A stretch of 64,000 nt of DNA from Prorocentrum cordatum. Taxonomy: Eukaryota. The notes under the pieces were generated by a model, which saw only the letters and a program-made list of their open reading frames with translations, had not been told where the DNA came from and did not search any database. The stretch spans positions 1 to 64,000 of the forward strand of contig CAUYUJ010000069.1 in the NCBI GenBank assembly GCA_963575745.1, written 5' to 3'. Of the stretch, positions 31,313 through 49,391 are shown piece by piece. The translations under genes and the position numbers were made by a program. Each line of letters begins with the position of its first letter. Position 1 is the first letter of the stretch.

Positions 31313-32270
31313 CGCCCGTGCTGCCTCGCAGGGCTGGACCGAAACGGTGTTTCAGGTGAGTTCGTGGGCCGCTTTCGCTTCGACTCCGTTCTGCGGTAGA
31401 GGCGGTGTCGAGACAAAAAAGCGAGGGCAAACGAGAACAAAACGGGAACGAAGGACACTGTTTAAGTTCAGCCCGTGGCTGCCTCGCAAGGCTGGACCGA
31501 AACGGTGTTTCTGGTGAGTTCGTGGGCCGCTTTCGCTTCCACTGCGTTCTGCTGTAGAAGGCGGGCTCGAGACAAAAAAACCGAGGGCAAACGAGAACAG
31601 AACGGGAACGAAAAACACCGTTTAGGTTCAGCCCGTGGCTGCCTCGCAGGGCTGGACCGAAACGGTGTTTCTGGTGAGTTCGTGGGCCGCTTTCGTTTCC
31701 ACTTCGTTCTGCGGTAGAAGGCGGGATCGAGACAAAAATAACGAGGGACAACGAGAACAAAGCGGGAACGAAGAACACCGTTTGGCTTCAGCCCGTGGCT
31801 GCTTCGCAGGTCTGGACCGAAACGGTGTTTCTGGTGAGTTCGTGGGCCGCTTTCGCTTCCACTCCGTTCTGCGGTAAAGAGGCGGGCTCGAGACAAAAGA
31901 ACGAGGGCAAACGAGAACAAAGCGGGAACGAAAAACACCGTTTAGGTTCAGCCCGTGGCTGCCTCGCAGGGCTGGACCGAAACGGTGTTTCTGGTGAGTT
32001 CGTGGCCCGCTTTCGTTTCGACTCCGTTCTGCGGTAAAGAGGCGGGCTCGAGACAAAAAAAAACGAGGGCAAACGAGAACAGAACGGGAACGAAAAACAC
32101 CGTTTGGTTTCGGCCCGTGGCTGCCTCGCAGGGCTGGACCGAAACGGTGTTTCTGGTGAGTTCGTGGGCCGCTTTCGTTTCCACTCCGTTCTGCGGTAGA
32201 GAGGCGGGCTCGAGGCAACAAAAAAAGAAGCGAGGGCGAACGAGAACACAGCGGGAACGAAGGACACCAT
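31313..32270. repeat. 160-bp tandem repeat, ~6 units, resuming briefly at 32816-32885
   Basis: gcccgtggctgcctcgcagggctggaccgaaacggtgtttctggtgagttcgtgggccgc recurs every 160 bp; whole unit conserved. Confidence 0.95.
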
Positions 32271-32271
32271 T

Positions 32272-32634
32272 CCCAGACCCCCGACGTCATGTTTTTGTCA
32301 TGACGTCGATCCCCAGCGGTTTGGACCCATTCCCCGGGACCGGTTTTTCCTCCTGAGTCGTTCTTTGACGGTCCCGGGGGCCGGTGAAGGCCCCCAGGTG
32401 CCGAAAGTAGCGAAAAACTTGCCGTCATGATTTTTTCATGACTCGAGGGGGTTAAAACGACGCGAAGATCGGGACAAAATCGGATCGGGATAACTCGAAA
32501 TCTCTGAGAATCGGCGGGTTTGGAGGATGTATTGGGCGCCGCGGCCGCTCCAGAGCGTTCCGGAACGCTCTGAGAGCGCTCCGGAACGCTCTGGAGCGAT
32601 TTATCCCGATCCTAGCCCTGTTTTAGGGGTCTGG
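32272..32634. mobile_element. CCCAGACCCCC-family MITE with right TIR split by a nested MITE
   Basis: Left end CCCAGACCCCCGACGTCATG; right end GAGGGGGT[insert]GGGGTCTGG. Confidence 0.8.
32453..32625. mobile_element. MITE, TAAAA...TTTTA ends, 5-bp TSD GGGGT
   Basis: TSD at 32448-32452 and 32626-32630; second copy at 41164-41301. Confidence 0.85.
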
Positions 32635-34214
32635 CTGGGTAGTCCAAGGCCAGACTGTCAGATTGGATTGGGCCCCAAGGGCCAATCTGGCCCGGCCAAG
32701 CTGGACGATTTGGGTGATTCGCCAGGCTGGATTCGCGTGGGCTCCCTCGCCAGACTGCCCCCGTTTGCCAGATGGGGCCTGCCAGATGGGCGCCAGATTG
32801 GCTTCGACTGCCCAGAAAAATCGAGGGACAACAAGAACAAAGCGGGAACGAAGAACACCGTTTGGCTTCAGCCCCTGGCTGCCCCGCGCACCCGGCCACC
32901 GAGAGCCCATGGGGCCACGGCGCCGGGCGGCGTCGGAGAACTCGGCGACGGAGGTCGAGCTCGAGGTCGGGGGTCTGCAGGAAGGAAGCAATGCCTCCTC
33001 CTGCTCCTCCTCCTCCTCCTCCTCCTCCTCCTCCTCCTTCCCCTCCTCCTCCTCCTCCTCCTCCTCCTCCTCCTCCTCCTCCTCATCCCCATCCACCATG
33101 CCCAACAGCGGATCTTACCAGCCTGGAACACATCCCTATCCCTAGGCTGTGGCATCACCTCACCTCGATGCCGATCTCAGGCCTACACCGCACTCACATC
33201 TATACCCCTGGGTGGGTGTATGTGCGGCCGTTTTTGCGCTGTCATGTGCGCGCATGTGCGCGGCATGTGCCAGTCATGTGCCAGGCCTGTGCGGCCCTTC
33301 GTGGATGGACCTCCTACTGTGCACGTCGTGCCCGGGCATGTGCGGGGGCATGTGCGCTGTGTTTCGATGTATCCATCATGCGCACATGCACGCGCAGTCC
33401 GACGCAGATGCGCGCACATGCCTGCACATGCGGGAGGTGTTCCAGAATCGCAGGTCTGTCATCGGCACATGCACGCACATGCCTGTGCAACCTCTCTTCG
33501 GGAGGCCGCGCGGGCCCGCACATGCACGCACATGCGGTGAAACGCGCGGGCGCACATGCGTGCACATCCCAATGCACATGCACGCTCATGCCCTAGGAGC
33601 TGTCTGGGACCCCTGTGCCTCCAATGCCTCCTGGCCTTCGCAGAGCTAACCTGGGGCGTGCCAGGGCTTCTTGAAAGAGTTTGTTGTGCGTTTAGACTCG
33701 CCCGCTGCTGGCGGGGGCGGTTCTTGGAGCTGGCGGTGGCGTGCCCTCCTAGTAAAATAATCTCCCGCGCGCCTTCTCAGCTGGGCCGGAGAAGCAGGGG
33801 TGGGTGGGGGAGGTGGAGGGGGAGGGGAGGAGGGGGGGGCGGAGGAGGCGGACGCCCCTGGCTCGGCCGGCCCGCCCGCCTGTTCGGCTCGGCCAGAGGA
33901 GGAGGAGGAGGAGGAGGAGGAGGAGGAGGAGGAGGAGGAGGAGGAGGAGGAGGTGAGAGTTGCGAGGACATCTCAGGCGAAAGTGGCTTGACGGCCCGAG
34001 TTCAGGGAATCTCGGAATCGCTGGCCTGGCTCGGCCACTGGCGAGCTCGGCCTGTGCGAATACTGTGCGTACCTGTGCGGGGCATGTGCGGGACGTGCAA
34101 GAATCCCAGGGCCGGCGTTCGTCTCCGGGCGCCGGCGCGTTCGCGTCCAGCCCGTTCCGCGTGAGACGTCGTCGGCAATCTGGAGGCCGACATGCTTTGA
34201 CATGAGGTCATGAG

Positions 34215-35100
34215 GTGATTTGGCCACCTTCGCCTGAGACATCCTCGCAGCTCTGGTCTCGGAGATGCCCTGCCCCAGGGTGGCCCGGCCACTTTCGCTT
34301 GAGACATCCTCGGAACTCTGGGTTTCGAGACGCCCTCGCAACTCTGACCTCAGAGATCTCCTGCCCCATGCTTGTCAGGCCACTGTCGCCTGAGACATTC
34401 TCGCAAGTCTCGATTCCGATATCCCCGAGCTGAGGTGGTCAGCCACTGTCGCCTGAGACATCCTCGCAACCCTGATCTCAATGATGCCCTGCTCGATAGT
34501 GTCTCGGCCCCTTTCGCCTCAGACATCCTCGGAACTCTGGGTTCCGAGACGCCCTGAGCTGAGGTGGTTAGACCACTTTCGCTTTAGACATCCTCGCCCG
34601 AGATGCCCTGAGTTGAGGTGTTCAGGCCACTTTCGCCTGAGACATCCTCGCAACTCTGACCTCAATGATGCCCTGCTCCATAGTGTCTCGGCCTTTTTCG
34701 CCTGAGACCCCCGCAATTCTGGGTTCCGAGATGCCCTGAGCAGGTGGTCAGGCCACTCCTGCCTGAGACATCCTCGCAACTCTGGGTTCCGAGACGCCCT
34801 GGGCTGAGGTGGTCAGACCACTCTCGCCAGAGACATCCTCGCAACTCTGACCTCAGAGATCTTTTGCCCCATGGTGGTCAGGCCACTTTCGCCTGAGACA
34901 TCCTCACAACTCAGACCTCGGAGGTGTCCTGCCCCATGGTCGTCTGGTCACCTTGACCAGCGACATCCTCGCCAATCTGGTTTCCAAGATGCCCTGCCCC
35001 ATAGTGGTCTGGCCACGCTTGCCTGAGACATCCTCGCAACTCTGGGTTGCGAAATGCCCCAAGCTCAGGTGGTCAGGCCACTATCGCCTGCGACATCTCT
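34215..35100. repeat. degenerate tandem repeat, core ggccactttcgcctgagacatcctcgcaactctg
   Basis: About 13 recurrences at ~50-75-bp spacing; inverted copy at ~33957-33990. Confidence 0.85.
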
Positions 35101-35815
35101 GCGGCATGTGCGGGCATGTGCGTCTATGCTTTCAGAGTTTTGCTTGACCGTGCATTCGACTGTGCGTCGGACGGTGTGGCATGTGCGCGCATGTGCGGCA
35201 ATGCTGTTGAGGCTTTTGTATATTTGCATGGGCATGTGCATGCGACTGTGCGGCATGTGCCTGCATGTGCGGCCCCTTCCGGACCACAATTTCAAAGTGA
35301 GCACTATAGAAGTGAGCGCTATAGAAGTGAGTCCGGTGTATGCCTAAGATTGTCCTCGCTTGTTGCTCGCTCATCTTGGGGATAGGGATGCGTTCGAGGC
35401 TGGTTAGGATCTTGTTCCTTTTGAACAGGCCTCGCCGTCCGCGCCGCCGCGGCCTCTGTCCATTCGAGACAGGAGGCCGCCTGCCCAACAGCGGCCGCTG
35501 TTGGTTTGGGACAACACTTGCTGTTGGGCACTGTGCCCATTCTTTCCGTACCCATTTCGGGCGTCCAAAAGGGGGCGCGCCGTGCTCGCACGGCAAGCAG
35601 TGGGGCGGAGCGTCCTGGCGTGCCTGTAGGCCTACCAAAGAATGTTCGAATCCCCTTGTGTGGTTTCCACGGAAGCGTCCTAGAACATGTCTGGCTGGGA
35701 CTGTCTTGTTTTGACACATCGGGTTTGTGTTATCAGAACTTGGCACGTTCTTGGCTTCTGAGAACATGTCGTGGTAGGCCTATGGGAGTGCCGGGGCGGC
35801 CGGTGCCTGCTCAGT

Positions 35816-36004
35816 TCGGGCCGGACGAAAGGGGGGGGGTGGGGGGGGTACGAAATTTGCGGCACGCAGCCGGTTTCGGCCTCACCGAGGGGCCCCTTCC
35901 TTGATACATGGCCGCCTCCGGCGCCAAGAGGCGCCGGGAAAATCAGCTGCGCGAGCTGCTTCTCAAGACCCCCCTTTGCTATCCCCCCCTTTCGCCCGAC
36001 CCGA
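35816..36004. mobile_element. MITE, TCGGG...CCCGA ends, 5-bp TSD TCAGT
   Basis: TIR TCGGG(C/T)CGG(A/G)CGAAAGGGGGGG. TSD at 35811-35815 and 36005-36009. Relatives at 48499-48635 and 56349-56544. Confidence 0.88.
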
Positions 36005-36036
36005 TCAGTGCACGCCTGCACCGGGAAATAAAAGAT

Positions 36037-36110
36037 TCGAAGGGCACCAACCATACACCAACACCGATCCTGGCCAGGATCGGTGTTGGTGTATGGTTGG
36101 TGCCCTCCTA
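36037..36110. mobile_element. 74-bp palindromic mini-element, 5-bp TSD AAGAT
   Basis: Perfect 66-bp palindrome at 36041-36106; AAGAT at 36032-36036 and 36111-36115. Confidence 0.8.
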
Positions 36111-36504
36111 AAGATACCCTAAAAATACCCCAAAAAGGTCAAAAAGTACACCAAAAATAGTCGAAACTCCTTCTGCAGGGGGACAGGCGCGACTCAACAC
36201 TGGGCCCCGGGCCCAGGGCCGGCGCCTGGCCGCCCTGCCAGGGCCGGGCTCTCTGCGAGTGGCCGATGGCCAAGGGCCGCGCTGCCGCTGCGATTGGATT
36301 CAGCCCAGCTCGGCGCCCTGGCACGGAGTTATGGTAGGTTTGCGTCGTGTCGACCAGCGGCGACCCCAGCGCGGGCGTTCAAGGTTGAACGCCGCCGGCG
36401 ACCCAGAATCGATCGATGTTGAACGATCGGACGTTGCGGCAGCGGCCGATCGTTCAAGGTTGAACGATCCCTGCGGTGTCAAAAACCAACGCTGGGGTCG
36501 GCGC

Positions 36505-36722
36505 CCTTCTGGACGCCCGAAACGGGTACTGAAAGAATGGGTACAATGCCCAACAACAATTCCTGTTCATTTTGGACAGGATTCGCTGTCCGCGCCGCCG
36601 CGGCCTGTGTCCATTCGAGACAGGAGGTCGCCCGCCCAACAGCGGCCGCTGTCGGTTTGGGACAACATTTGCTGTTGGGCATTGTACCCATTTCTTCGGT
36701 GCCCATTTCGGGCGTCCAAAAA
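36505..36722. mobile_element. inverted-repeat element (ggacgcccgaaa..ggtac..aaagaatggg TIRs)
   Basis: ~50-bp imperfect TIRs; related sequence at 35410-35582 and 50057-50270; TSD not resolved. Confidence 0.6.
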
Positions 36723-36793
36723 GTGGCCGATGGCCAAGGGCCGCGCTGCCGCTGCGGTTGGGTTCAGCCCAGCCTTAGCGCCCTGGCACGGAG

Positions 36794-36989
36794 TTATGTC
36801 GGTCGTGTCCCCCTACAGGAGGATTTTCGACGAAAAATAAAAAATGTACCCCCAAAAAGTACATCCAAAGGGTCCAAAACTATTCAAAACATAGTCCCTG
36901 GATTATTTCTGGATTATTTTTTGGCTACTTTTGGGGTATTGCTTATTTTTCGTCGAAGATCCCCCTGTACGGGGACAGACCCGACATAA
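36794..36989. mobile_element. MITE with ~47-bp TIRs (TTATGTCGG...CCGACATAA)
   Basis: TIR comparison; relatives at 50290-50481 and 56546-56886, the latter with a nested insertion. Confidence 0.75.
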
Positions 36990-37678
36990 GCATGGACGTC
37001 GGGCGCGTCCCTCTGCAGTCAGGCGATCGCGAGCATGGATCAGGGGGGCCTGGATGACAGCGACGGGTTCCGTTTCCGGGGGGAAGCGCGGAGTTGCGCC
37101 GCCGAGCGAGGCGGCACCGGCGGCATTTTGGGGAGGGCACTTCCCCCCATCCATGGAGTTGGCGACCGCGCGCCAGATCCATGAATCGCTGATCCATGTT
37201 CGCGCGCCCCCGATGTATAGGAGGAGTCTTCAAAGATAGCCAAAACATAGTATCGGGACGAAGTCTTCTAGCATTCGTTGACAGGGATCGCTAATCCATT
37301 AGTTCGATGACTAGTCTGCGCGCCCCCGGTTTCTTGTCCGCGTCGCGAGGTGATCTGGGGCCCCCCCCTCCTGCTTCCAGGCGTCCCACCGGTGCAGCTC
37401 CACAATGCATTAGTAGCACTAGTGTGCCCCCACTGGTGCAGCTCCGGTGCAGCTCCCACCGGTCCCAGGCTATGGGGACGATGTTTGTAGTATTCGGCTA
37501 TGGTCAGGAGGAAAAGAAACACAGACACAATTGATCATCGATTCCCCAGAAGATATGGGAAAATATGGGAAGTGGACGGGAAGACAGAAACCCAGAACAT
37601 ATGGGAAACTATGGGGGTGCTTTTGTTTGTGTGTATTTATTTGTGTGTCCTTGGGCCCCTTCGCATGGGGACGATGTT

Positions 37679-37865
37679 CCCAGACCCCCGACGTCATGAT
37701 TTTTTCATGACGTCGATCCCCAGCGGTCTGGACCACTTCCCCGGGACCGGCTTTTCCTTCCGAGTCGTGTTTTGACGGCCCCGAGGGCCGGTAAGGGCCC
37801 CCGGAGGCCGAAAATCCTGAAAAACTTGCCGTCGTGATTTTTGTCATGACTCGAGGGGGTCTGGG
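37679..37865. mobile_element. CCCAGACCCCC-family MITE, 15-bp flanking direct repeat
   Basis: catggggacgatgtt at 37664-37678 and 37866-37880. Confidence 0.88.
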
Positions 37866-38446
37866 CATGGGGACGATGTTTTGTGTGTATTTGTTTGTGT
37901 GTATTTGTTTGTGTGTAGGGAAGACAGAAACCCAGAAACCCAGAAAAGATGGGAAAATAGGGGGGATGATTTTGTTTGTGTGTATTTGTTTGTGTGTCCT
38001 TGGGCCCCTTCACATGGGGACGATGTTTAGGAGGAGGAGGAGGAGGAGGAGGAGGAGGAGGAGGAGGAGGAGGATGACGAGGAGGAGGAGGAGGAGGAGG
38101 AGGAGGAGGAGAGGAGGAGGACGAGGAGGAGGAGGAGGAGGAGGAGGAGGAGGAGGAGGAGGAGGAGTGGCATTCGTGGGCTGCGCGCGAGCACTGTTGG
38201 AGCCCGCCGGGGCCGGGCGCCGCGGTGCGGCCTCGGCCTCCGGGCGCTCGGCCCCCCGAGCGGGTCCGATGCGCGCCTCCGGGCACGGCTCGGGGGGGGG
38301 GAGCGGCACACAGACGCTGTGAATCCTCGACTCCCTCCTCCCTCCTCCCTCATCCCTCCTCCTCCCTCCTCCTCCTCCTCCTCCTCCTCCTCCTTCCGCC
38401 TCCTCCTCCTCCTCCTCCTCCTCCTCCTCCTCCTCCTCCTCCTCCT

Positions 38447-38958
38447 CCTCCTCCTATCGTCGACTCCCAGGGAAAATACGGGAAGTGGACGGGAAGACAG
38501 AAACCCAGAACATATGGGAAAATATGGGGGGTGCTTTTGTTTGTGTGTATTTCTTTTCCCATGGGCCCCTTCACATGGGGACGATGTTCCCAGACCCCCG
38601 ACGTCATGAATTTTTCATGACGTCGATCCCCGGCGGTCTGGACCCATTCCCTGGGACCGGCTTTTCCTCCCGAGTCGTTTTTTGACGGCCCCGATGGCCG
38701 GTCCTCCTCCTATCGTCGACTCCCAGGGAAAATACGGGAAGTGGACGGGAAGACAGAAACCCAGAACATATGGGAAAATATGGGGGGTGCTTTTGTTTGT
38801 GTGTATTTCTTTTCCCATGGGCCCCTTCACATGGGGACGATGTTCCCAGACCCCCGACGTCATGAATTTTTCATGACGTCGATCCCCGGCGGTCTGGACC
38901 CATTCCCTGGGACCGGCTTTTCCTCCCGAGTCGTTTTTTGACGGCCCCGATGGCCGGT
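38447..38958. repeat. near-identical 256-bp tandem duplication
   Basis: 38447-38702 matches 38703-38958 and includes most of a CCCAGACCCCC MITE. Confidence 0.85.
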
Positions 38959-39030
38959 AAGGGCCCCCGGAGGCCGAAAATCCTGAAAAATTTGCCGTCG
39001 TGATTTTTTCATGACTCGAGGGGGTCTGGG
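38845..39030. mobile_element. CCCAGACCCCC-family MITE, 12-bp flanking direct repeat
   Basis: ggggacgatgtt at 38833-38844 and 39031-39042. Confidence 0.85.
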
Positions 39031-39719
39031 GGGGACGATGTTTGGGGCAGGTGATGGAGAGGAGAGGAGTGGAGGCGGAGGGAGGAGGAGGGGAGGAGGA
39101 GGAGGAGGAGGAGGAGGAGGAGGAGAGGAGGAGGAGGAAGGAGAGAGGAGGAGGAGGAGAGAGGGAGGAGGAGGGAGGAGGATGGGAGGAGGAGGAGGGA
39201 GGAGAGGAGAGGAGAGGAGGAGGAGGAGGAGGAGGAGGAGGAGGAGGAGGAGGAGGAGTGGCATTCGTGGGCTGCGCTCGAGCATTGTTGGAGCCCGCCG
39301 GGGCCGGGCGCCGCAGTGCGGTCTCGGCCTCGGGGCGCTCGGCCCCCCGAGCCGGTCCGATCCGCGCCTCCGGGCACAGTCTCGGGGTGGGGAGCAGCAC
39401 ACAGACACTGTGAATCCTCCTCCGCCTCCTCCTCCCTCCTCCCTCCTCCCACCTCCCTCCTCCCCCCTCCTCCTCCTCCTCCTCCTCCTCTCCTCCTCTC
39501 CACCTCCTCCTCCTCCTCCTCCTCCTCCTCCTCCTATCGTCGACTCCCAAGAAAAGATAGGAACATATGGGAAGGGGGGGGGAGACGAAGGCCCAGAAGA
39601 GGCGCGGAAATGTGGCGGCCCCCGAGCCGGTCCGATCCGCGCCTCCGGGCACAGCTCGGGAGGGGGAGCAGCACACAGACGCTGTGGATCGTCGACTCCC
39701 AGGGAAAGATAGGAACACA

Positions 39720-39905
39720 CCCAGACCCCCTCGAGTCATGAAAAAATCATGACGCGAGGTTTTTCATGATTTTCGGCCTCCGGGGGCCCTCACCGGGCCT
39801 CGGGAGCGTCAAAAAACGACTCAGGACGAAAAACCGGTCCCGGGGAATGGGTCTGGACCTCTGGGGGTCGACGTCATGAAAAATTCATGACGTCGGGGGT
39901 CTGGG
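39720..39905. mobile_element. CCCAGACCCCC-family MITE (opposite orientation), 39-bp flanking direct repeat
   Basis: 39681-39719 vs 39906-39944, 35/39 identical. Confidence 0.85.
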
Positions 39906-40322
39906 ACTGTGAATCGTCGACTCCCAGGGAAAGATTGGAACATATGGGAAGGGGGGGGGAAGACGAAGGCCCAGAAGAGGTGCGGAAATGTGGCGGCCCC
40001 CGAGTTGGTCCGATCCGCTTCTCCAGGCACAGCTCGGGAGGGGGAGCAGCACACGGACGCTGTGAATCGTCGACTCCCAAGAAAAGATAGGAACATATAA
40101 GGGGGGGGAAGACTAAGACCCAGAAGAGGTGCGGAAATGTGGCGGATCCTGGGATTTGTGTGCAATATTTGCGTTTCCTTGGGCCTCTTTAACACAGAGC
40201 CACAACCACAACCAAGTGGATTTTTCGGGACCCACCGACGGACCTGGGCATGAGCACCTTGGTTGGGGTCGTGGTCGATGTGGCCGTGCCGGGACGCCCA
40301 CATTGACCGCAGCCATCACGAA

Positions 40323-40490
40323 TCGGGTGTTGCTAGAAGTGCCCCAGGCCCACGGTGCCCCAAGCTTTTCGCTCCATTCTTGAGCCCCTGATCCCCTCTG
40401 GGCCTCGTGAGGGGTGCCCTGGAGGCCGTCTGGGCCACCGCGAGAATCCTGGGGGTACCTTGGGCCAGGGGTACTTCTAGCAGCACCCGA
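40323..40490. mobile_element. 168-bp MITE, TCGGG...CCCGA ends, 5-bp TSD ACGAA
   Basis: TIR TCGGGTG(T/C)TGCTAGAAGT(G/A)CCCC(A/T)GGCCCA; ACGAA at 40318-40322 and 40491-40495. Confidence 0.9.
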
Positions 40491-41163
40491 ACGAAGCTGA
40501 TGCCAGTGTTCCGACAGTTCTTCGCATGCGCAGGGTGTGCCCTCGAAGTGGCTGTGGCCAGGAGGAGGCGGCGGAGGACGAGGAGGAGGAGGAGGATGAG
40601 GGACGAGGAGGAGGAGGACGAGGAGGAGGAGGAGGAGGAGGACGAGGAGGAGGATGAGGAGGAGGGACGAGGAGGAGGAGGAGGAGGAGGAGGGGAGGAG
40701 GAGGAGGAAGAGAAGGAGGAGGAGAGGAGGAGGAGAGGAGGAGGAGGCGGAGAAGGAGGAGGAGGGATGAGGGGAGAGAGAGGAGGAGGAGGAAGAAAGG
40801 AGGAGGCTAGGAGGCGGAGAGGGGAGGAGGAGGCGGAGGAGGCGGGGAGGGGAGAGGGGAAGGGAGGAGGGAGGAGGAGGGGAGGAAGGGAAGAGAGGGG
40901 GGGGAGGAGGAGGAGGAGGACACCCCCGCAGCTTCGCCTCCGATCCGCCGGCGCGCGGCCGCCCCGCTCGGGCCCGTGCCCCGTGCGGGGCCGGCGTCGG
41001 GCGGGGTGGGCCGGCGCTCCCCCCCGTGCGGAGGGGGCTCGCGGCTCCGTGCCCGAGGAGCTGGACGCGATCCTGGGCCGCCCGGGCGCGTCCGCTGCTG
41101 CGGCCCCCGCCCGCTGCGGCAGGCAGGCAGTCCGAGGAAGCGAGGTGTATACCCCACCCAGAG

Positions 41164-41301
41164 TAAAACGACACGAAGATCGGGGCAGAATCGGATCGGG
41201 ACGACTCGAAATCTCGGAGAACCGGCGGGAGCGTTCCGGAACGCTCTGAGAGCGCTCCGGAACGCTCTGGAGCGATTTATCCCGATCCTAGCCCTTTTTT
41301 A
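41164..41301. mobile_element. MITE, TAAAA...TTTTA ends, 5-bp TSD CAGAG
   Basis: CAGAG at 41159-41163 and 41302-41306; homologous to 32453-32625. Confidence 0.85.
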
Positions 41302-41675
41302 CAGAGATCCAGCGTGTGGGCAGAAAAAACAGGACGGGGGTCTGCGGCAGGTTTCGGCCCCTGGGGGTCCTCGCCGGGCCTCGGGACCGTCAGAGAAAGA
41401 TTCAGGTTGAGAAGCCGGTCCTGGGGAATGGGTCAAGATTTTTCCGGTGGCCGCGTATTGAAGCAATCACGACATCGGATCTCTGGGCATGCCGCTACCA
41501 TCGCCTCGTTTTCCCCTTTCTCGCCCCGCTGCAGGGCCCTCGCCGCCGCTGGATTCGCCTCGAAGTGCTGGCCAGGACGTACCCCAGGAGAAGCCCGGGG
41601 AGTGGCGTCATTGGTACTTCTTTTGGGTTCCGCATACAGAGGAGGACAAGATGCCCATACCGCCACCCTGGGGTT

Positions 41676-41851
41676 CCCATCAGAGCCCGTTCGGCGTCGG
41701 AGCCCACTCGGCCGCCGAGGGGGCTCATGATCGAGCCCACTCGGCGGCCGATCGGCTGCCCCGCATTGCCTCGACCCTGTCAGAGCTGTGCCCGATCGGC
41801 TGCCCGTTCGGCGGCCGAGCGGGCTCAGACGCTGAACGGGCTCATAAGGGA
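41676..41851. mobile_element. fold-back element with ~45-bp imperfect inverted repeats
   Basis: gagcccgttcggcgtcggagcccactcggccgccga vs tcggcggccgagcgggctcagacgctgaacgggctc; no TSD found. Confidence 0.55.
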
Positions 41852-42324
41852 GGCATAGGGCAGAGAGAGTTTTTCACACCCTGGCGATACAGTGGAGGCC
41901 CATGCCAAGAAACATCCTGCTTGCCTCCAGGGTGCCCTGGGTTTCTTGGGCTTCGATGGTTTTGCTATGGAAAGCGTGACGCTCCCGCACGAAAGATCAA
42001 TGGACGTCCTGGAGTCTCAGGGTTGGGTTTCTTGTGGAAGGTTTCTGGTGGTCGGGCCCCTACTGTAACGGGCGTGACTTGGGGGGAGGGGGGGGGGGCT
42101 TGGCCGGTCCTATAAGGAAGAAATTCTAGACGCTTCGCGTATCCCCACCAGTGCCTGCCGCTGGCGCTTCCGCCTGCGGCTGTTTTTTTACCTAACAGCG
42201 AAGACTGATAGGTTTCTAGTAGGCTCAAAAGAGAGCAGCAGATGACTCCACAGGGGGGTTTGGGCAGCCGTTGGGGAGGTGTTGGGGTTTGCCGGCGGGG
42301 ATCGTTTTTCGCATACAGTCACAC

Positions 42325-42850
42325 ACTTCGTTCTCTTCGACCTCCCAGAACTCCATTCCCGGGCCACATTCTGAATGCCCGGAGCCAACTGTAGGCCACT
42401 TCGTGCTCTTCGACTTCCCAGAACTCCATTCCCGGGCCACATTTTGAATGCCCGGAGCCAACTGTATGCCACTTCGTGGTCTTCCCAGAACTCCATTCCC
42501 GGGCCACATTTTGAATGCCCGTAGCCAACTGTAGGCAACTTCGTGCTCTTTTGAATGCCCGGAGCCAACTGTAGGCCACTTCGTGCTCTTCGAGTTCCCA
42601 GAACTCCATTCCCGGGCCAGATTTTGGATGCCCGGAGCCAACTGTAGGCCACTTCGTGGTTTTCGAGTTCCCAGAACTCCATTCCCGGGCCAGATTTTGA
42701 ATGCCCAGAGCCAGCTGTAGGCCACTTCGTGGTCTTCGACTTCCCAGAACTCCATTCCTGGGCATGAATTTGAATGCCCGGAGCCAACTGTAGGCCACTT
42801 CGTGTTCTTCGAGTTCCCAGAACTACATTCCCGGGCCACATTTTGAATGC
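42325..42850. repeat. ~64-bp minisatellite, ~8 units
   Basis: cccagaactccattcccgggccacattttgaatgcccggagccaactgtaggccacttcgtg recurring. Confidence 0.92.
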
Positions 42851-43135
42851 TGAGGCAGGCTGAGGCTGAGGCTGAGGCTGAGGCAGGCTGATGCTGAGGC
42901 AGGCTGAGGCTGAGGCTGAGGCTGATGCAGGCTGAGGCTGAGGCAGCCTGAGGCTGACGCCGCGGCTGAAGGCAGACTGAGGCTGAGGCTGAAGCAGGCT
43001 GAGGCTGAGGCTGAGGCAGGCTGAGGCTGAGGCAGGCTGAGGCTGAGGCTGAGGCACGCTGAGGCTGAGGCTGTGACTGTGACTGCCGTTGCCACTGCGA
43101 CTGTCATCGCGAATGCGACTACGACTGCGAGAACA
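42850..43135. repeat. (GCTGAG)n simple repeat grading into (GACTGY)n
   Basis: Direct reading. Confidence 0.9.
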
Positions 43136-43334
43136 GCAGAATTCTACAACTGGATTCTCATCTGAATCTTAAGGGGATTGCTTCCAGATATGCTCCTACA
43201 CATCGCTGTTAGGTTGCTTTGCCCGATATAATTATTTTTGCTTATATTCAAACAACAACAAAAAACGTATCCCCACCAGCCCGTCCAGAAACGACGCCCA
43301 GGCGAGTAGAGGGTCGGCCTGAGGGGCTTTTCGG

Positions 43335-44050
43335 CGTCTTGGGTGCCTCGGGGGGGCCTCTGTGGGCCGTTCGGGATCCTCTTTGGGGCCTCCTGGGGGC
43401 CTCTTGGGGCCTCTTGGGGCCATCTTGGGGCCTCTGGGGGGTCTCTGGGAGCACCTTGGGTGCCTCTGGGGCCTCTGGGAGCACCTTGGGTGCCTCTGGG
43501 GGGTCTCTTGGGGCCTCTTGGGGGTCTCTTGGGGGCCTCCTGGGGGCCTCTTGGGGGGCCTCTTGGGGCCATCTTGGGGCCATCCTGCGGCCTCTTGGGG
43601 CATCCTGGGGGCCTCTTGTCAAAGAAAGCGGAAGCACTAATTAGCGTCGCTCCTGGAAAGCCTCTAAAATCGCCTCCTGAACCGCTCTTTGAGGGCTCTT
43701 GGAGCGCTCTTGGGCGCTCTTTGCGCCGTCTTCGGGCTTTCTTGGGCCCTTCTTGGAGCTATATTGAGCCATCTTGGAGCTATCTTGACGCCTCGGGTGG
43801 GCATCGGAAGCGAAAGCGCGAGAACGCCAAAAACATTGATTTCCCATAGGGTTTTGAAACATTTTGGCTTCTTGGGGGCATCCGAGGGGAGCTCTAGTGG
43901 ACACTTAGAGCCGTCTTGGGGCGGTCTTGGAGCGTCTTGGAGCATCTTCGGAACCATCTTGAGGCATCTTGCGCTATCTTGAACCATCTTGGAGGCGATC
44001 TTGGGCTCCCTGAGGCCCTCTTGGAGTCGTCTTGGCTCATCTTGGACGCT
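43335..44050. repeat. degenerate 10-11-bp repeat (gggcctcttg / catcttggag)
   Basis: Direct reading. Confidence 0.75.
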
Positions 44051-44798
44051 CCAACGCGTCGCGGCCCCCCCTGTCCAGGTCAGTGGGGAGGGGGTGGGGG
44101 GAGGGGTAAACCCCTCTCCGAAGGGGAAGACGGAGGATGGAAGAAGAAACGCTCTAAACCACCGACGCCCAGAGGGCTGGTGGGATTGGCTCCTACCTGT
44201 CCTTCGTCGCCACGGCTGGATTCGCCTCGGAATCTTGGTAAGAACGCATCCTGGAGCAGGCCCGGGGAGCAGCGGCAGCGGCATCTTTGTGCTCCCCGAG
44301 GCAAGGGCCTGCCTTGAGGCGACTGGGGGCTGCTGCTGGCGTGGTGCCCCCCCCGCCATATTCCCGCTCCCCCCTGCAGTCGGGGCCCTGAAGAAGGAAC
44401 CCTTTTCGTTGGGGAGGGGCTCCGCGTTCCTTCAGTGTTTCGCAGCTTGCCTCAGGTTTTCCTTATGTTTTCGATCGGAAGTCGAAGTTTAACTCATGGA
44501 AAAAAAGTGGCCTCGTTCCTTATTTTGGGTTCCTTAGGTCAAGCCCCCGACTGCGTCCCTGGAGCAGGGCTGGTCTAGACCACGGCGGCCCTGCTTTGCG
44601 GTCTGGGTCCTTGTCGGGCGAGGTCTCGAGCAGCGGGGCAGGCTGGACCCCGGGAGGGGTCCGGGGTCCACTGGGGGCCGAAGCGCGCGGAGCTGGGGAC
44701 GAGTGGCGGGAGAGCCGCCGTGGTCTCGCCTGGCCCTCCTCTCCGACCTCGAGGAAGGCCAGCGGACCACCTGCACCGACCCCAGGCGGGACGATCCT

Positions 44799-44970
44799 TC
44801 GGAGGTGGACAGAACCCCCAACAGTGACACGTCGATTAGTGAATTGTCCGTTTTCGGTTCTCGAAAGGGCGCCGTGTCCGTTATTTTCCAGGCTTGCGCC
44901 CGACAGGTTTGGGCCTCGGGTTGTTTTCACTAAACCACGTTTTACTAAAGGGGGGTCTGTCCAACCCCGA
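44799..44970. mobile_element. 172-bp MITE, TCGG...CCGA ends, 5-bp TSD ATCCT
   Basis: TCGGAGGTGGACAGAACCCCC / GGGGGTCTGTCCAACCCCGA; ATCCT at 44794-44798 and 44971-44975. Confidence 0.9.
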
Positions 44971-47680
44971 ATCCTGGGCGCAGTTTTGGGGTGCGTGCCT
45001 CCCTGGCTATGCCGGGAGGGCGTGTCCACAGGGCCTGGCCCCAGGAGGGGCCCGGCCGGGCTCGGCGAGTTGTTCGGTGGCCGTTCCCCGACGTCTGCGG
45101 CCGCCTGCGAGTTTGCAGCGCACAGTAAGGGTGAGCAGATTTCCACGGGTCTCCTTGCATCCTTGCCCCTCCTCCTCCTCCTCCTCCTCCTCCTCCTCCT
45201 CCTCCTCCTCCTCCTCCTCACGCTTCCGCCTCCTCCTCCTCCTCCTCCTCCCTCCTCCCCTCCGCCTCCTCCTCCTCCACCTCCTCCTCCTCCTCCACCT
45301 CCTCCTCCTCCTCCTCCGTCCTCCTCCTCCTCCTACCTCCTCCTCCCCCCCCCTCCTCCTCCTCCTCCTCCTCCTCCTCCTCCTCCTCCTCTATCTGAAT
45401 TTGGGCAGTCGCTGGAGAACGACTTCATTGCCTACTCCAACGTCTAACTACCTCGGGCCCCGGCCCGCCCGCGCCGGCCCCCCGGGCCCCGCCAGCCACT
45501 GGCCGGCGGACACGCCCGCCTCGCCTCGCCTCGCCCTCTCGAAAAGCGCCGGCACGCCCTTCCAAGGCCATTGCATCATCTCCGTGCATCCGTATACGCG
45601 GTGAACATCCCTGCAAGTAGGGGGGTCACATGGCTGCTGGCATTAAGTCGGGCATGTCCCTCCAGAGGGAATATTCAAAAGTAGGTTTGAACAAAAAGTC
45701 GGGTAATGTGTTTTCGATTATGCGGGTTTTTCGTTCGTATTTTTTCCGTCCAAAATCCGCCTGTAGGAGGACATGCCTGACCTAAGGGTAGGGTTCACCT
45801 GTGGTTGCCTGCTCCTCCCCCTCCCCAGGCCCCCTCGGGTCGCGACTAAAGTCACGACGTGAGCTTTTGGTCGTTGTCGGCCTCCGCGGACCGTCCAAAG
45901 AGCGACTCGGGACGCAACGTCGGTCCTGGGGAAGGGATCGAGACTTCTGGGGCTCGAGTGGCGAAAACAGCATGACGTCAGGGGGTCTCCTCTCGGGGTG
46001 GGCGAAAGGCTTGGCATCGCTCGGACGTGTGCGTTTCTTCCCAGCGAGGGCCATGGAGGAGCATCCTGGATCATCTTGCGAAACACGCACGACATCGACA
46101 CATGTACGGGGAACGCACGTCCGAGCGACGGCGAGCAGGGGGGGCAGGGGGGGACGTGCGGGGGAGATAACGGAAGCGGCCTCCCGCAGCTGGCTGTTCG
46201 GCCCCGCCGCGCGAACATTCGCCTCGTCGCGCGACGGCTCGAGGCGCCCAGGAAGCGAGCAGCTCGCAGCTCATTCGCTGGCATCCCTTTCGGCGGCGAG
46301 CTAGGGGGGAAACGAGAAGACGAAGGCCTTCTCAGACGATGTGCTTGTTTTCCACCACCACCACCATAAGTTGGGGGGGAGGGTGTCCTCCTCCTCCTCC
46401 TCCTCCTCCTCTTCTTCGTCCTCCTCCTCGTCCTCCTCCCTCCCCCCTCCAACTCAGGGTGGTGTTTGTGGAAAACAGGCCCATCATCAGAAGGCGGCGG
46501 GACTTCTCAGAAGTTCTCGACCGTCAAGTCTGCCATCCCGGGCCCAAGATCTCCCGGCCTCGGGCCCGGGATGAGCTCAGAGCTGACCCTGCCCGTTCGG
46601 CCTGGAGGACGCACCCTCCGATGTCCTGGCATCGCTGGGACATGTGTATTTTTTTTCTCGGCGAGGACCCTTGAGGACCATCCTGGACCATCCTGGACCA
46701 TCGAGCAAAAAAAACATGCACGAAACCGAAACATGCACGGGAAATGGACGTCCCAGCGACGGCAAGATGTAGGATGCCTCTCCTGGGAGGTTGCGTAGTT
46801 AACCAAGGCGGTCATTCAGCGGCGAACGACCCAGGGGGAAGTGAGAAGGAGGATGCCTTCTCAGACGGCGGCGGGACTTCTCGGAAGCCCGCGGGCCCCC
46901 TGATAAGTCCTGTGTGTCTTCGGGGGAGGCTCAGGAAGCTTCTCAGAATGCTCGGGGGACTTCCGAGCCCGCTCCTTCTCACAGCCCCCCCGGGCGCACC
47001 GCCTACAGTGAGCGACTTGAATAAGGAACACTTGCTTTTCAAAAGGGGCTCTGTCGTTCCTTAGGCTTGCATGCGTTACTTATCGCTGCTTAGGCGTTAT
47101 GGATTGATTATCAGCGCTTGTGCGTTATTCTTCAGAAGAAAAAGAGCTTCGTTCCTGATGCATCGTTCCTTAGGTCAGGCCGATGACTGTATACGCGTTG
47201 AATGTACCCCTTCGGGTCCAGTCGGCGCCAGGGTGTCGAACATCCCTGCAGCAAGCAGAAAGGGTCCGCATGGCTGCCAGCATCCTTCAGGATCACCCGG
47301 CCCCCGCCGGCGTTTTCCGCAGTCCCTGACCCTCAAAGGCAGGGCGCGGTCGCGCCCGGCCCCTCTCCGGGAGGCATACCGTCGGGCCGCTGAAGAAGGA
47401 GCCCTTTTCGTTTGGGAGGGGCTCAGTGTTCCTCAGTGGTTTCACATCGTTCCTTGGGCTCTCCAGGGCTATCCTATGGAACATCGGAGTTTAGCTTATG
47501 GGAAAAAGGGGCCTCGCTCCTGGTCCATCGTTCCTCAGGTCAGCGCCCCGAGAGTACGCAAAAGCCGGGGCGCCGTGCCTCTCCGGGAGGCATGCCCGAG
47601 AATTGCATGTGTCTCCTATATTTCTCAGACGATTCGAACCTCGAAGATCATAACTATGGTAAACATATGATGTCCTTAAA

Positions 47681-47866
47681 CCCAGACCCCCGGCGTCATG
47701 ATTTTTTCATGACGTCGACCCCCAGCGGTCTGGACTCATTCCCCGGGACCGGTTTTTCCTCCTGAGTCGTTTTTTGACGGCCCCGAGGGCCGGTAAGGGC
47801 CCCCAGAGGCCGAAAATCATGAAAAACTTCGCGTCGTGATTTTTTCATAACTCGAGGGGGTCTGGG
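47681..47866. mobile_element. CCCAGACCCCC-family MITE, 19-bp flanking direct repeat
   Basis: 47662-47680 vs 47867-47885 (16/19 identical); single-copy empty site in paralog at 48080-48170. Confidence 0.85.
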
Positions 47867-47912
47867 AACATCTCATGTCCTCAAACTCTACACCCAAAAT
47901 GAAGATGGGGTA

Positions 47913-48077
47913 CACCTTAGGCGATGCTTAAGAAAACTTGAGTTTTCGGCCAGAGTCTCGATTATTCTTAATGTTTCAATGTAAATCCTAAGATTTTGAC
48001 AGAAACGTTGGGGTTATCTTCAAGTTCTGAGACTATGAGTTTCTTAACCCATGATTTCTAAAGCATTTCGCAGGGTG
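47913..48077. mobile_element. MITE with CACC...GGTG ends and TA duplication (Tc1/mariner-like signature)
   Basis: ta-CACCTTAGGCGATGCTTAAGAAA...TTTCTAAAGCATTTCGCAGGGTG-ta; second copy at 56690-56853. Confidence 0.8.
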
Positions 48078-48945
48078 TATATTTCTCAAACGATCAGAAC
48101 CTCGAACATCAGAACTACGTCAGAACATCTCATGCCCTCAAGCTCTATACCCAAAAGGAAGATGGGGTGCGCAAAAGCCGGGGCGCCGTGCCCCATGTCC
48201 GGGGGCAGTGGCCATGCGAAGTTGTCGAGGCATCCAGCCGCCGTGGTCGACGTGAGGTGTAGAAAAAAAAATGAAAAAAAGCCGGGGCGCCGAAGCCCTG
48301 CTCCTCGGTATCCGCCGGCCGGGCCGACGACGGCACCCCCGAGAGCTCTCCCCCGAGAGCTCTCTTCGGCGCCGCTCGGCGCCTCCCAGGGTGCGAAAGG
48401 CCGCCCGGGCTGCCTCGGCAGCCCGTCGCGGGGGGGGGGGCCGGCTCGGCGCCCCCTCGGGGCGGTCCCTCGACGGCCCCGGCAGGGGCAGGCCAAGATC
48501 GGGCCGGGCGAAAGGGGGGGATTGGGAAAGGGGGGGGGTACGAAATTTGCTGCATGCAGCTGGTTCCGGCCTCACCGAGGGGCCCGTTCCTCGATACATG
48601 CCCACCTTTGCTATCCCCCCCTTTCGCCCGACCCGGGGGGCCGGCTCGGCGCCCCCCCGGAGCGGTCCCTCGACGGCCCCGGAGGGGCAGGCCGAGAAGC
48701 CGAGGTCGGGGGCGGAAAAGAGGGGGGTGATGACTAGGGGGGGGTGGACATCATGGCGGGGAGCACGATGTTTCCCCAGATTTCATGGCGCCTCTTGTTA
48801 TTTCACTACGTCCCTGGCCCCCCCGCTGGGCCGCGCAGCCTCCGGGCGGTGGCCGCCCGGAGGCCTCGGCAGCCCGTCGCGGGGGGGGCCGGCTCGGCGC
48901 CCCCCTCGGGGCGGTCCCTCGACGGCCCCGGCAGGGGCAGGCCGA

Positions 48946-49309
48946 CCCAGACCCCCTCGAGTAGTGAAAAAATCATGACGGCAGGTGTTTCGCTATTTTC
49001 GGCCTCCGGGGGCCCTCACCGGGCCTCGGGAGTGTCAAAAAACGACTCAGGATGCAAAGCCGGTCATGGGGAAAGGGTCCAGACCTGGGGGGGCCGGCTC
49101 TCTGGGGGGGCCGGCTCGGCGCCCCCCCCAGAGATCCAACGTATTGAAAAAATCAAGACGCAGGTTTTTCGTAATTTTCGACCTCTAGGGGCCGTCGCCG
49201 GGCCCTGGGAGCGTCAAAAAACGACTCAGGATGCAAAGCCGGTCATGGGGAGAGGGTCGGGACCTCTGGGGGGCGCGTCATGAAAAAATCATGACGTCGG
49301 GGGTCTAGG
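48946..49309. mobile_element. internally duplicated CCCAGACCCCC-family MITE, ~42-bp flanking direct repeat
   Basis: cctcggggcggtccctcgacggccccgg(c)aggggcaggccga at 48904-48945 and 49310-49350. Confidence 0.8.
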
Positions 49310-49391
49310 CCTCGGGGCGGTCCCTCGACGGCCCCGGAGGGGCAGGCCGAGAAGCCGAGGAGGATGCAGATCCTCTCGGGACGACCGACAG

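What the first reader, a model, noticed from the sequence alone, without database searches (positions are those of the whole stretch)
32272..49350. TIR element family flanked by long, variable-length target duplications (12-42 bp)
Seen: a ~186-bp element with CCCAGACCCCC...GGGGGTCTGGG ends and subterminal hairpins (GTCATGA-N5-TCATGAC) occurs at 37679, 38845, 39720, 47681, 48946 and 32272. The first five are immediately flanked by direct repeats of 15, 12, 39, 19 and ~42 bp. Paralogous empty sites in this window carry the flank only once (38013-38027, 40059-40097, 48124-48142, 48454-48495). Known: eukaryotic DDE TIR superfamilies normally give short, fixed-length TSDs of about 2-11 bp. Long variable duplications typify TPRT retroelements and a few bacterial IS such as IS1549 and IS1634. 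Inference: this is a non-autonomous member of a DNA transposon group with an atypical integration mechanism. I recognise no transposase in the window.
Basis: partly seen in the sequence, partly recalled or inferred. Interest (0 to 1): 0.8.

Follow-up and report, generated by a model that had tools for sequence, protein, structure and literature searches.

The report
Mini-transposon with long variable target duplications
A 187-base mobile DNA element in a repeat-rich stretch of an unidentified eukaryote is flanked by duplicated target DNA of 12 to about 64 bases, not the short fixed duplications usual for such elements, which hints at an unusual way of inserting.

Summary
A ~187-bp non-coding element (here "E") has 11-bp terminal inverted repeats and a palindrome inside each end. 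It occurs about 10 times between 32.2 and 49.3 kb and nowhere else in the window. All 5 copies of the young cluster with both tips intact are flanked by direct repeats that abut the tips. Their identities are 15/15, 12/12, 35/38, 16/19 and about 41/42. Only 4.7% of random 187-bp gaps in the same DNA score as well. Paralogous empty sites carry each flank once.

- The 15- and 12-bp cases are probably one event.
- The "42-bp" case is better read as one copy with a ~64-bp duplication, into which a second copy later inserted with 0-2 bp duplicated.
- 32272 is complete but has no flanking repeat.
- Two very old copies are uninformative.

A second small element ("S") sits twice inside E's end with a clean 5-bp duplication. 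The host DNA therefore does not lengthen every duplication.

Most likely E is a non-autonomous DNA transposon whose two ends join the target at independently placed nicks. The enzyme is unknown: no Pfam family reaches threshold in 271 reading frames. Variable duplications are already reported for Chlamydomonas Helitron2 and Replitron elements, so I rate it a new variant. No genome-wide test was possible.

The parts
37679..37865 (+). E copy, intact. Flanked by 15/15 direct repeat (37664-37678 and 37866-37880).
38845..39030 (+). E copy, intact. Flanked by 12/12 direct repeat (38833-38844 and 39031-39042). Same left junction as 37679, so probably the same insertion carried along by a segmental duplication, with 3 bp lost at the right junction.
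38589..38702 (+). Partial E copy. It is the first 114 nt, produced by a 100%-identical 256-bp tandem duplication (38446-38958) whose breakpoint lies inside E.
39720..39905 (-). E copy, intact. Flanked by 35/38 direct repeat (39682-39719 and 39907-39944), with one extra base at 39906.
47681..47866 (+). E copy, intact. Flanked by 16/19 direct repeat (47662-47680 and 47867-47885).
48946..49109 (-). E copy 'A'. Its inner-end hairpin (about 39 nt) is replaced by about 14 nt copied from the adjoining flank, and the last 6 nt of the tip are retained next to the repeat. Flanked by a ~64-bp direct repeat: 48882-48945, and 49110-49127 plus 49310-49351.
49127..49309 (-). E copy 'B', a hybrid with one canonical end (CCTAGACCCCC) and one subfamily-2 end (GGATCTCTGGG). 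It is inserted inside the right-hand copy of A's duplication with only 0-2 bp duplicated, in a C run.
32272..32639 (+). E copy (32272-32452 plus 32631-32639) interrupted in its right terminal repeat by element S1. No flanking direct repeat.
32453..32625 (+). S1, a copy of a second small element family (ends TAAAAC...GTTTTA). It has a 5-bp target duplication GGGGT (32448-32452 and 32626-32630).
41157..41487 (-). Old E copy of subfamily 2 (terminal repeat CCCAGAGATCC at both ends; 41157-41163 plus 41307-41487), interrupted by S2. No detectable flanking repeat, but too diverged to be informative.
41164..41301 (+). S2, the second copy of the S family. It has a 5-bp target duplication CAGAG (41159-41163 and 41302-41306).
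45824..45990 (-). Degenerate E copy (66-72% identical to the others). No detectable flanking repeat.
38013..38027 (+). Paralogous site without E that carries the 15-mer once. It may be secondary rather than ancestral.
40060..40095 (+). Paralogous empty site for the 39720 insertion. The flank is present once, with matching contexts on both sides.
48124..48142 (+). Paralogous empty site for the 47681 insertion. The flank is present once.
48456..48495 (+). Paralogous empty site for the 48946 insertion. A further one lies at 48656-48695. The flank is present once in each.

Best explanation
E is a family of small non-coding DNA transposons (MITE-like, non-autonomous) in a eukaryotic genome. Each end carries an 11-bp terminal inverted repeat followed by a short palindrome. 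Together these form an imperfect inverted repeat of about 33 bp that probably binds a transposase supplied in trans. On insertion the two ends are joined to the two target strands at nicks that are not held at a fixed spacing. Repair synthesis across the staggered gap then duplicates anything from about 0 to about 64 bp of target.

Shown here: the element's anatomy, the copy set, flanking repeats that abut the conserved tips, single-copy paralogous empty sites, and an ordinary 5-bp duplication made by another element in the same DNA.

Inferred: that the repeats arose at insertion, that the stagger is variable because the two end-joining steps are uncoupled, and that the intermediate is DNA.
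For: - All 5 young copies with both tips intact have direct repeats that abut the tips (scores 10-28). Only 4.7% of 2000 random 187-bp gaps in the same repeat-rich 18 kb score 10 or more. For about 4 independent events that is roughly 5e-6 (my arithmetic).
- At three sites the left repeat copy keeps the upstream context and the right copy keeps the downstream context of a paralogous site that has the sequence only once. This is the signature of a target duplication and not of a pre-existing tandem repeat.
- Both 11-bp tips are complete at the junctions of the repeat-bearing copies, which argues for enzyme-defined ends.
- Mismatches in the repeats (0/15, 0/12, 3/38, 3/19, about 1/64) are in line with the 3-8% divergence of the same copies from their consensus.
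- The S element makes 5-bp duplications twice in the same DNA, so long repeats are a property of E and not of host repair in general.
- The element folds far better than shuffles (DNA -48.4 against -29.1 +/- 3.3 kcal/mol), and the hairpin motif is found only in E copies.
- There are T runs on both strands (sequence). No tRNA-like or Rfam match was found. Both points speak against an RNA intermediate.
Against: - There are only about 4 independent events, all in one 17-kb stretch of one window.
- Copy B, which must be younger than A's near-perfect duplication, duplicated only 0-2 bp.
- The complete copy at 32272 has no flanking repeat, although it is no more diverged than 39720.
- The region is prone to small local duplications: a 256-bp tandem copy at 100% identity, a 14-17-bp templated copy beside A, and a 4-bp slip at the end of 32272.
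- No autonomous partner or transposase is present.
- No copy outside the window could be examined.
Confidence: 0.5

Rival explanations
1. E is mobilised by an HUH (Rep-type) nuclease, as Helitron2/Helentron or Replitron elements are. On each strand a hairpin lies 11-15 nt upstream of a 3' end ...TCTGGG, so E would be two Helitron-like 3' ends in inverted order. The variable duplications would arise as reported for one-ended Helitron2 and Replitron-1 insertions in Chlamydomonas.
For: - Hairpins sit at both ends, beside short terminal inverted repeats.
- Insertions without duplication are mixed with duplications of variable and sometimes long length. This is the pattern described for CRe-1/2/3: about 7-19 bp, and in some cases 44-443 bp, with none at full-length insertions (PMC3627910, passages read).
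- Replitron-1 makes variable-length duplications in de novo insertions (bioRxiv 10.1101/2022.12.15.520654, section 8 read).
Against: - The defining asymmetric arrangement of Helitron2 is not met. There the 3' inverted repeat lies 20-30 bp inside the end, upstream of the hairpin (section 9 of PMC3627910). In E the inverted repeat is at the very tip at both ends.
- There is no T-rich target rule: the base left of the element is T in 4 of 8 copies.
- Replitrons have direct terminal repeats, not inverted ones.
- In CRe families the duplications accompany mostly 5'-truncated copies, whereas here full-length copies carry them.
- No Rep or helicase is found in the window.
Confidence: 0.17
2. E itself makes no duplication, or a short one. 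The long flanking repeats are secondary products of a duplication-prone region. Possible routes are hairpin-stalled replication with template switching, or aberrant transposition that uses ends of neighbouring or sister copies.
For: - Local duplications of 4, 14-17, about 150 and 256 bp lie next to or inside E copies.
- Copies sit close together in both orientations.
- B and 32272 lack long repeats.
Against: - The repeats abut both conserved tips at about 4 independent sites. Template switching has no homology to guide it there, because the ends are inverted and not direct.
- Aberrant transposition would add a normal short duplication, and none is seen.
- The random-gap control already includes the region's tandem repeats and still gives only 4.7%.
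Confidence: 0.12
3. Excised or extrachromosomal linear E DNA is captured by host end-joining at chance staggered chromosome breaks. Fill-in of 5' overhangs of any length gives the variable repeats.
For: The range of duplication length from about 0 to about 64 bp has no preferred value, and no target consensus appears at the junctions.
Against: End-joining usually trims or adds bases, yet both 11-bp tips are complete at the junctions of the repeat-bearing copies. Natural breaks with 15-64-nt 5' overhangs are not a common substrate (my own knowledge).
Confidence: 0.1
4. E is copied through RNA and inserted by a LINE or Penelope-like reverse transcriptase (target-primed reverse transcription), the classical source of long variable duplications.
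For: - The duplication lengths fit that class. Non-LTR elements give variable duplications, up to a median of 900 bp for Dualen-4b in Chlamydomonas (PMC9977147, passages read).
- One copy (A) lacks part of one end.
Against: - There is no poly(A) or simple-repeat tail, and both ends are exact inverted repeats.
- T runs on both strands would stop RNA polymerase III (sequence; inference).
- No tRNA-like head was found, and no Rfam family including hammerhead ribozymes.
- A's missing part is an internal replacement with the tip retained, not a 5' truncation.
Confidence: 0.07
5. The flanking repeats are chance matches or pre-existing tandem repeats into which E happened to fall.
For: All sites lie in locally repeated sequence families, and 4.7% of random gaps in the region score as well.
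Against: Five of five young intact copies have the repeats. The paralogous sites carry the flank once, not twice.
Confidence: 0.02

Closest known systems
[quoted passage not shown]
   Same: Eukaryotic elements with hairpins at both ends and short inverted repeats at or near the ends. Some insertions have no duplication and others have duplications of variable length (about 7-19 bp, with cases of 44-443 bp). No coding capacity for their own transposase.
   Different: Their inverted repeats are asymmetric, with the 3' one 20-30 bp inside the end and upstream of the hairpin. They insert after T-rich tetranucleotides, and duplications accompany mainly 5'-truncated copies. E has symmetric repeats at the very tips, shows no T-rich target, and its full-length copies carry the duplications.
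Replitron-1 / Replitron-N1 (Craig 2022, bioRxiv 10.1101/2022.12.15.520654)
   Same: Eukaryotic DNA elements whose observed de novo insertions give variable-length target duplications. A hairpin lies near one end.
   Different: They have direct, not inverted, terminal repeats. They insert in a fixed orientation after RG and have 'fuzzy' right ends carrying donor-flank sequence. None of these features is seen in E.
Bacterial IS1634 / IS1549 group (IS4 family) and casposons
   Same: Elements bounded by terminal inverted repeats that make long duplications. These are variable (tens to hundreds of bp) for IS1634/IS1549 and about 14-15 bp for casposons. This is recalled from my own knowledge; the papers appeared only in a search listing.
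   Different: These are prokaryotic autonomous elements with known DDE or Cas1 enzymes. E lies in eukaryote-type DNA next to copia-like retroelement copies, and no enzyme is known for it.
LINE / Penelope-type retroelements and their SINEs (target-primed reverse transcription)
   Same: Duplications of variable length in the 10-100-bp range (PMC9977147, passages read).
   Different: Those elements have RNA intermediates, 3' tails, frequent 5' truncation and no terminal inverted repeats. E has exact inverted tips and no tail.
Classical MITEs of DDE superfamilies (Stowaway, Tourist, hAT- or Mutator-derived)
   Same: Size, lack of coding capacity, terminal inverted repeats, multiple diverged copies and nested insertions.
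   Different: Classical MITEs give a fixed duplication of 2-11 bp that is typical of their superfamily (general knowledge). E gives about 0, 15, 19, 38 and about 64 bp. The S element in the same window behaves classically, with 5 bp twice.

Membership tests
MITE (operational class of small non-autonomous elements with terminal inverted repeats) | Small size, no coding capacity, terminal inverted repeats, several copies | tested here: met
   The element is 186-187 bp with 11-bp perfect tips inside an imperfect inverted repeat of about 33 bp. There are 10 strong matches, and no ORF family was found.
MITE (operational class of small non-autonomous elements with terminal inverted repeats) | Target duplication of a fixed length typical of the parent superfamily | tested here: not met
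   Lengths are 15 (12), 19, 38, about 64 and 0-2 bp.
Eukaryotic DDE superfamilies with terminal inverted repeats (hAT, Mutator, PIF, Tc1/mariner, piggyBac, CACTA, P, Merlin, Transib and others) | Short fixed duplication of 2-11 bp | tested here: not met
Eukaryotic DDE superfamilies with terminal inverted repeats (hAT, Mutator, PIF, Tc1/mariner, piggyBac, CACTA, P, Merlin, Transib and others) | Autonomous relative encoding a DDE transposase with the same ends | not testable with these tools
   No genome is held, and none is found in the window.
Helitron2 / Helentron non-autonomous elements | Hairpins at both ends | tested here: met
Helitron2 / Helentron non-autonomous elements | Asymmetric inverted repeats: the 5' one 0-2 bp from the end, the 3' one 20-30 bp inside the end and upstream of the 3' hairpin | tested here: not met
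   In E both repeats are at the very tips and the hairpins lie inside them. The definition is taken from PMC3627910 section 9.
Helitron2 / Helentron non-autonomous elements | T at the 5' end, and insertion after a T-rich tetranucleotide or between T and T | tested here: not met
   The left neighbour is T in 4 of 8 copies, and no T-rich tetranucleotide lies upstream of the duplications.
Helitron2 / Helentron non-autonomous elements | RepHel-encoding autonomous partner | not testable with these tools
   No genome is held.
Replitron | Short direct terminal repeats | tested here: not met
   E's ends are inverted, not direct.
SINE or other element moved by target-primed reverse transcription | 3' poly(A) or simple-repeat tail, and a polymerase III-type head | tested here: not met
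   There is no tail, no tRNA-like sequence and no Rfam match.
SINE or other element moved by target-primed reverse transcription | Variable-length target duplication | tested here: met
IS1634/IS1549-type insertion sequences | Terminal inverted repeats with long, variable direct repeats | tested here: met
IS1634/IS1549-type insertion sequences | IS4-family DDE transposase; bacterial host | not testable with these tools
   No enzyme is known for E. The surrounding DNA is eukaryote-like: copia-type gag-protease-integrase frames and long AGG microsatellites.

The most novel reading that the evidence does not exclude
E represents a eukaryotic DNA-transposon lineage whose integration machinery joins the two ends at independently chosen, widely spaced target nicks. 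This would be a eukaryotic counterpart of IS1634-type or Cas1-type integration, or a symmetric-ended HUH element. It would therefore be a new superfamily-level mechanism for elements with terminal inverted repeats in eukaryotes.
Probability: 0.3. Interest if true: 0.8.

Novelty: new variant of a known kind. Interest (0 to 1): 0.6.

Why it matters
The length of the target duplication is the main clue used to classify small non-coding transposons and to infer how their transposase holds target DNA. A eukaryotic element with exact inverted tips but duplications from about 0 to about 64 bp does not fit any DDE superfamily. Automatic MITE finders that demand a short fixed duplication would miss or misfile it. 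If confirmed genome-wide, it points to an uncoupled or non-DDE insertion mechanism. It would also give a concrete set of ends with which to look for the responsible enzyme. Such elements also copy tens of bases of host sequence at each insertion, which is a source of small local duplications.

Tried and rejected
- Whole genome: none is held.
- Public DNA collections:
  - An exact 21-nt end pattern found nothing in metagenome contigs.
  - A looser 18-base pattern gave 16 loci. In all 16 the match did not extend beyond the pattern, so they are chance hits.
  - A 32-base end-plus-hairpin pattern found nothing in prokaryote genome contigs or viral contigs.
- Earlier notes of this scan: nothing for this genome, this sequence or look-alike stretches. 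A word search returned one bacterial case that was not used.
- Sequencing runs: two runs hold only 0.09 and 0.07 of the sampled words. Nothing was laid, so these runs are evidence of nothing.
- Host identity:
  - Pfam found no family in 10 long frames of the retroelement region.
  - The integrase-like frame had no homolog at E <= 1e-5 among the 8000 candidates scored.
  - The ESM Atlas gave only unnamed clusters and one gag_pre-integrase cluster.
  - The host lineage stays unknown, so I cannot say whether it is a green alga, where variable duplications are already known.
- RNA readings rejected: no Rfam family at gathering threshold in the window, only sub-threshold noise over one copy, and no tRNA-like gene.
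- Literature searches:
  - Four full-text searches were run.
  - The wheat 'Mariam' element (9-bp duplication, no inverted repeats) proved irrelevant.
  - Coral CMITEs (TTAA duplication) proved irrelevant.
  - Cryptophyte polinton-like viruses (7-23-bp repeats at tyrosine-recombinase elements) proved irrelevant.
  - The element's end sequences occur in no paper except as chance primer matches.
  - I found no paper describing a eukaryotic element with exact terminal inverted repeats and long variable duplications in these searches. Repbase and Dfam could not be consulted.
- Site-specific targeting: considered because 37679 and 38845 share a junction. Rejected as the main reading because the other sites share no motif.

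Full report
**Setting**

The window is eukaryote-like and gene-poor.
- The first ~31 kb holds roughly three ~10.9-kb head-to-tail copies of a copia-type retroelement. The frames carry CCCH fingers, a DTG protease motif and an integrase-like frame. Pfam recognises none of them.
- The rest is a patchwork of local repeats and long AGG/CCT microsatellites at 57-64% G+C.
- No whole genome is held, and the host lineage could not be named.

**The element (E)**

- The tip 11-mer occurs 11 times exactly, and 19 times with at most 1 mismatch against 3.5 expected.
- The palindrome motif occurs 8 times against 0 expected, always inside E.
- blastn and an nhmmer profile built from 8 copies give 10 strong matches, all between 32272 and 49309. 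One weak hit (E 0.001) lies at 58403-58508, and there is nothing in 1-32 kb.
- Reading inward, both ends run tip 11-mer, then 3-4 nt, then GTCATGA, a 5-6-nt A/T loop and TCATGAC. E therefore has imperfect terminal inverted repeats of about 33 bp, each holding its own palindrome.
- As single-stranded DNA one copy folds at -48.4 kcal/mol, against -29.1 +/- 3.3 for shuffles.
- There is no Rfam family and no tRNA-like sequence.
- No Pfam family reaches a curated cut-off, and none is transposon-related, in these frames:
  - 111 of 111 stop-to-stop frames of at least 130 aa that start at or after 30093;
  - 160 of 160 frames of 75-129 aa that start at or after 31000 (counts).
- Of the 171 frames of at least 130 aa in the whole window, 13 further ones from 5.6-16.3 kb were scanned. 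One search scanned ten start-codon ORFs, mostly from the first 27 kb. The other frames below 30 kb were not scanned.

**Flanking repeats**

I scored ungapped direct repeats that end within 2 nt of the left tip and start within 2 nt of the right tip.

| Copy | Flanking repeat | Note |
|---|---|---|
| 37679 | 15/15 | |
| 38845 | 12/12 | |
| 39720 | 35/38 | one extra base at 39906 |
| 47681 | 16/19 | |
| 48946-49309 | about 41/42 | one indel |

- The scores were 15, 12, 28, 10 and 17.
- Among 2000 random 187-bp gaps in 32-50 kb, 4.7% score 10 or more and 3.6% score 15 or more. Those hits presumably come from the region's tandem arrays (not examined).

**Empty sites**

Fuzzy searches find each flank once at paralogous sites: 38013, 40060, 48124, 48456 and 48656.
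- For 39720, 47681 and 48946, the left repeat copy shares the paralog's upstream context and the right copy shares its downstream context.
- That is what a target duplication predicts and what a pre-existing tandem repeat does not.

**How many events**

- 37679 and 38845 have the identical left junction and are each other's closest relatives (95.2%, against at most 92.5% to other copies).
- Their left flanks are about as diverged as the elements are.
- Most likely they are one insertion copied by a ~1.1-kb segmental duplication, with CAT later lost between G runs at one right junction.
- The alternative is two hits at the same nucleotide. It cannot be excluded, but the other sites share no target motif.
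- The E-less unit at 37881-38027 is closer to the filled 37679 unit than to the 38845 unit. It may therefore be secondary, for example a template switch across the 15-bp repeat, and not an ancestral empty site.
- 38589 is the front half of 38845, copied by a 100%-identical 256-bp tandem duplication.

**The composite at 48946-49309**

This is two elements.
- On the + strand a 64-bp unit (48882-48945) is followed by copy A (48946-49109).
- The same unit then follows again, split after about 18-24 bp by copy B (about 49127-49309).
- With B removed, the two units align over 64 nt with one indel and a C-run length difference.
- A's last 6 nt still abut the second unit, while its inner hairpin (about 39 nt) is replaced by about 14 nt copied from that flank.
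- The simplest history is that A inserted with a ~64-bp duplication and B then inserted into one copy of it.
- B duplicated at most 0-2 bp, within a C run. B must be younger than A's almost perfect duplication, so this is a genuine near-zero case.
- B is a hybrid with one canonical tip and one tip of a second subfamily (GGATCTCTGGG). The old copy at 41157-41487 carries that second tip at both ends.
- A and B are 85.6% alike, so B is not a fresh copy of A.

**A second element as an internal control**

The apparent loss of the right tip at 32272, and the odd end of the 41.3-kb copy, are both due to a second small element, S.
- S1 lies at 32453-32625 and S2 at 41164-41301. They are 75% alike, with TAAAAC...TTTTA ends.
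- Removing S plus one copy of a 5-bp duplication (GGGGT and CAGAG respectively) restores E's terminal repeat in both cases.
- An ordinary element in the same DNA therefore makes a short, equal-length duplication (n = 2). Long repeats are specific to E.
- With corrected ends, 32272 and the 41.3-kb copy still have no flanking repeat.
- The 41.3-kb and 45.8-kb copies are 64-72% identical to the rest and so are uninformative.
- 32272 is 88.7% identical to the consensus, against 91.9% for 39720. Its lack of a repeat is therefore real, or it is due to rearrangement of its right flank, which holds an unrelated ~180-bp stretch before the 160-bp satellite resumes.

**Tally of informative insertions**

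The duplications are about 15 bp (with its 12-bp derivative), 19, 38, about 64, 0-2 and none.
- Mismatches in the repeats fit the divergence of the copies.
- The length is thus variable from about zero to about 64 bp.

**Mechanism**

Repeats that abut enzyme-defined tips and are absent from empty sites are best explained by staggered target nicks whose spacing is not fixed, followed by gap repair.
- I infer a DNA intermediate from the exact inverted tips, the lack of a tail, the T runs on both strands, and the absence of any tRNA-like or Rfam match.
- The enzyme class is open.

**Published parallels**

1. Chlamydomonas Helitron2 non-autonomous elements have hairpins at both ends and short inverted repeats. 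Their duplications are absent at full-length insertions, about 7-19 bp at most others, and 44-443 bp in some (PMC3627910: abstract, passages and section 9 read).
   - E fails the defining asymmetric-repeat layout and shows no T-rich target.
   - I therefore do not file it there.
2. Replitron-1 has variable duplications in observed de novo insertions (bioRxiv 10.1101/2022.12.15.520654: abstract and section 8 read).
   - Its terminal repeats are direct, not inverted.
3. Non-LTR elements give long variable duplications (PMC9977147, passages read).
4. Bacterial IS1634/IS1549 and casposons are recalled from my own knowledge and were seen only in a search listing.

In four full-text searches I found no description of a eukaryotic element with exact terminal inverted repeats and long variable duplications. 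Repbase and Dfam were not available.

**What stays open**

Everything rests on about 4-6 events in 17 kb.
- No other copy could be fetched.
- The only route to reads failed.
- The genome-wide length distribution, polymorphic empty alleles and the autonomous partner are the decisive missing data.

**Verdict**

I rate it a new variant of a known kind, with interest 0.6.

Noticed in passing
32453-32625 and 41164-41301: A second small element family (S; 173 and 138 bp, 75% alike, ends TAAAAC...TTTTA, internal palindrome) has only two copies in the window. Both lie within the last 10 nt of the right-hand terminal repeat of an E copy, at different positions and in opposite relative orientation. Each has a clean 5-bp duplication. 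This suggests a preference of S for E's ends.
   Followed up: partly
1-31000: About three head-to-tail ~10.9-kb copies of a copia-type retroelement, in the order gag with CCCH fingers, DTG protease, integrase-like frame. Pfam does not recognise them, and no homolog at E <= 1e-5 was found for the integrase-like frame. Each unit also holds a 248-bp / 51-bp tandem array.
   Followed up: partly
38446-38958: A 256-bp tandem duplication at 100% identity has its breakpoint inside an E copy. It is a very recent local rearrangement.
   Followed up: partly
37500-40100: Modules of about 1.1 kb are built of a short unit, an (AGG)n run, a G+C-rich spacer and a (CCT)n run. The AGG and CCT runs form long inverted repeats.
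   Followed up: no
31314-32268 and 32813-32887: A 160-bp satellite (5.9 copies) is interrupted by E plus S plus about 180 bp rich in GCCAGAYKGG-like motifs. It then resumes with a fragment that overlaps the interruption point by about 50 bp.
   Followed up: partly
60384-62700: Long arrays of a 12-bp unit (GAGATCGATAGT and variants) lie in a lower-G+C stretch (48-49%) at the window's end.
   Followed up: no
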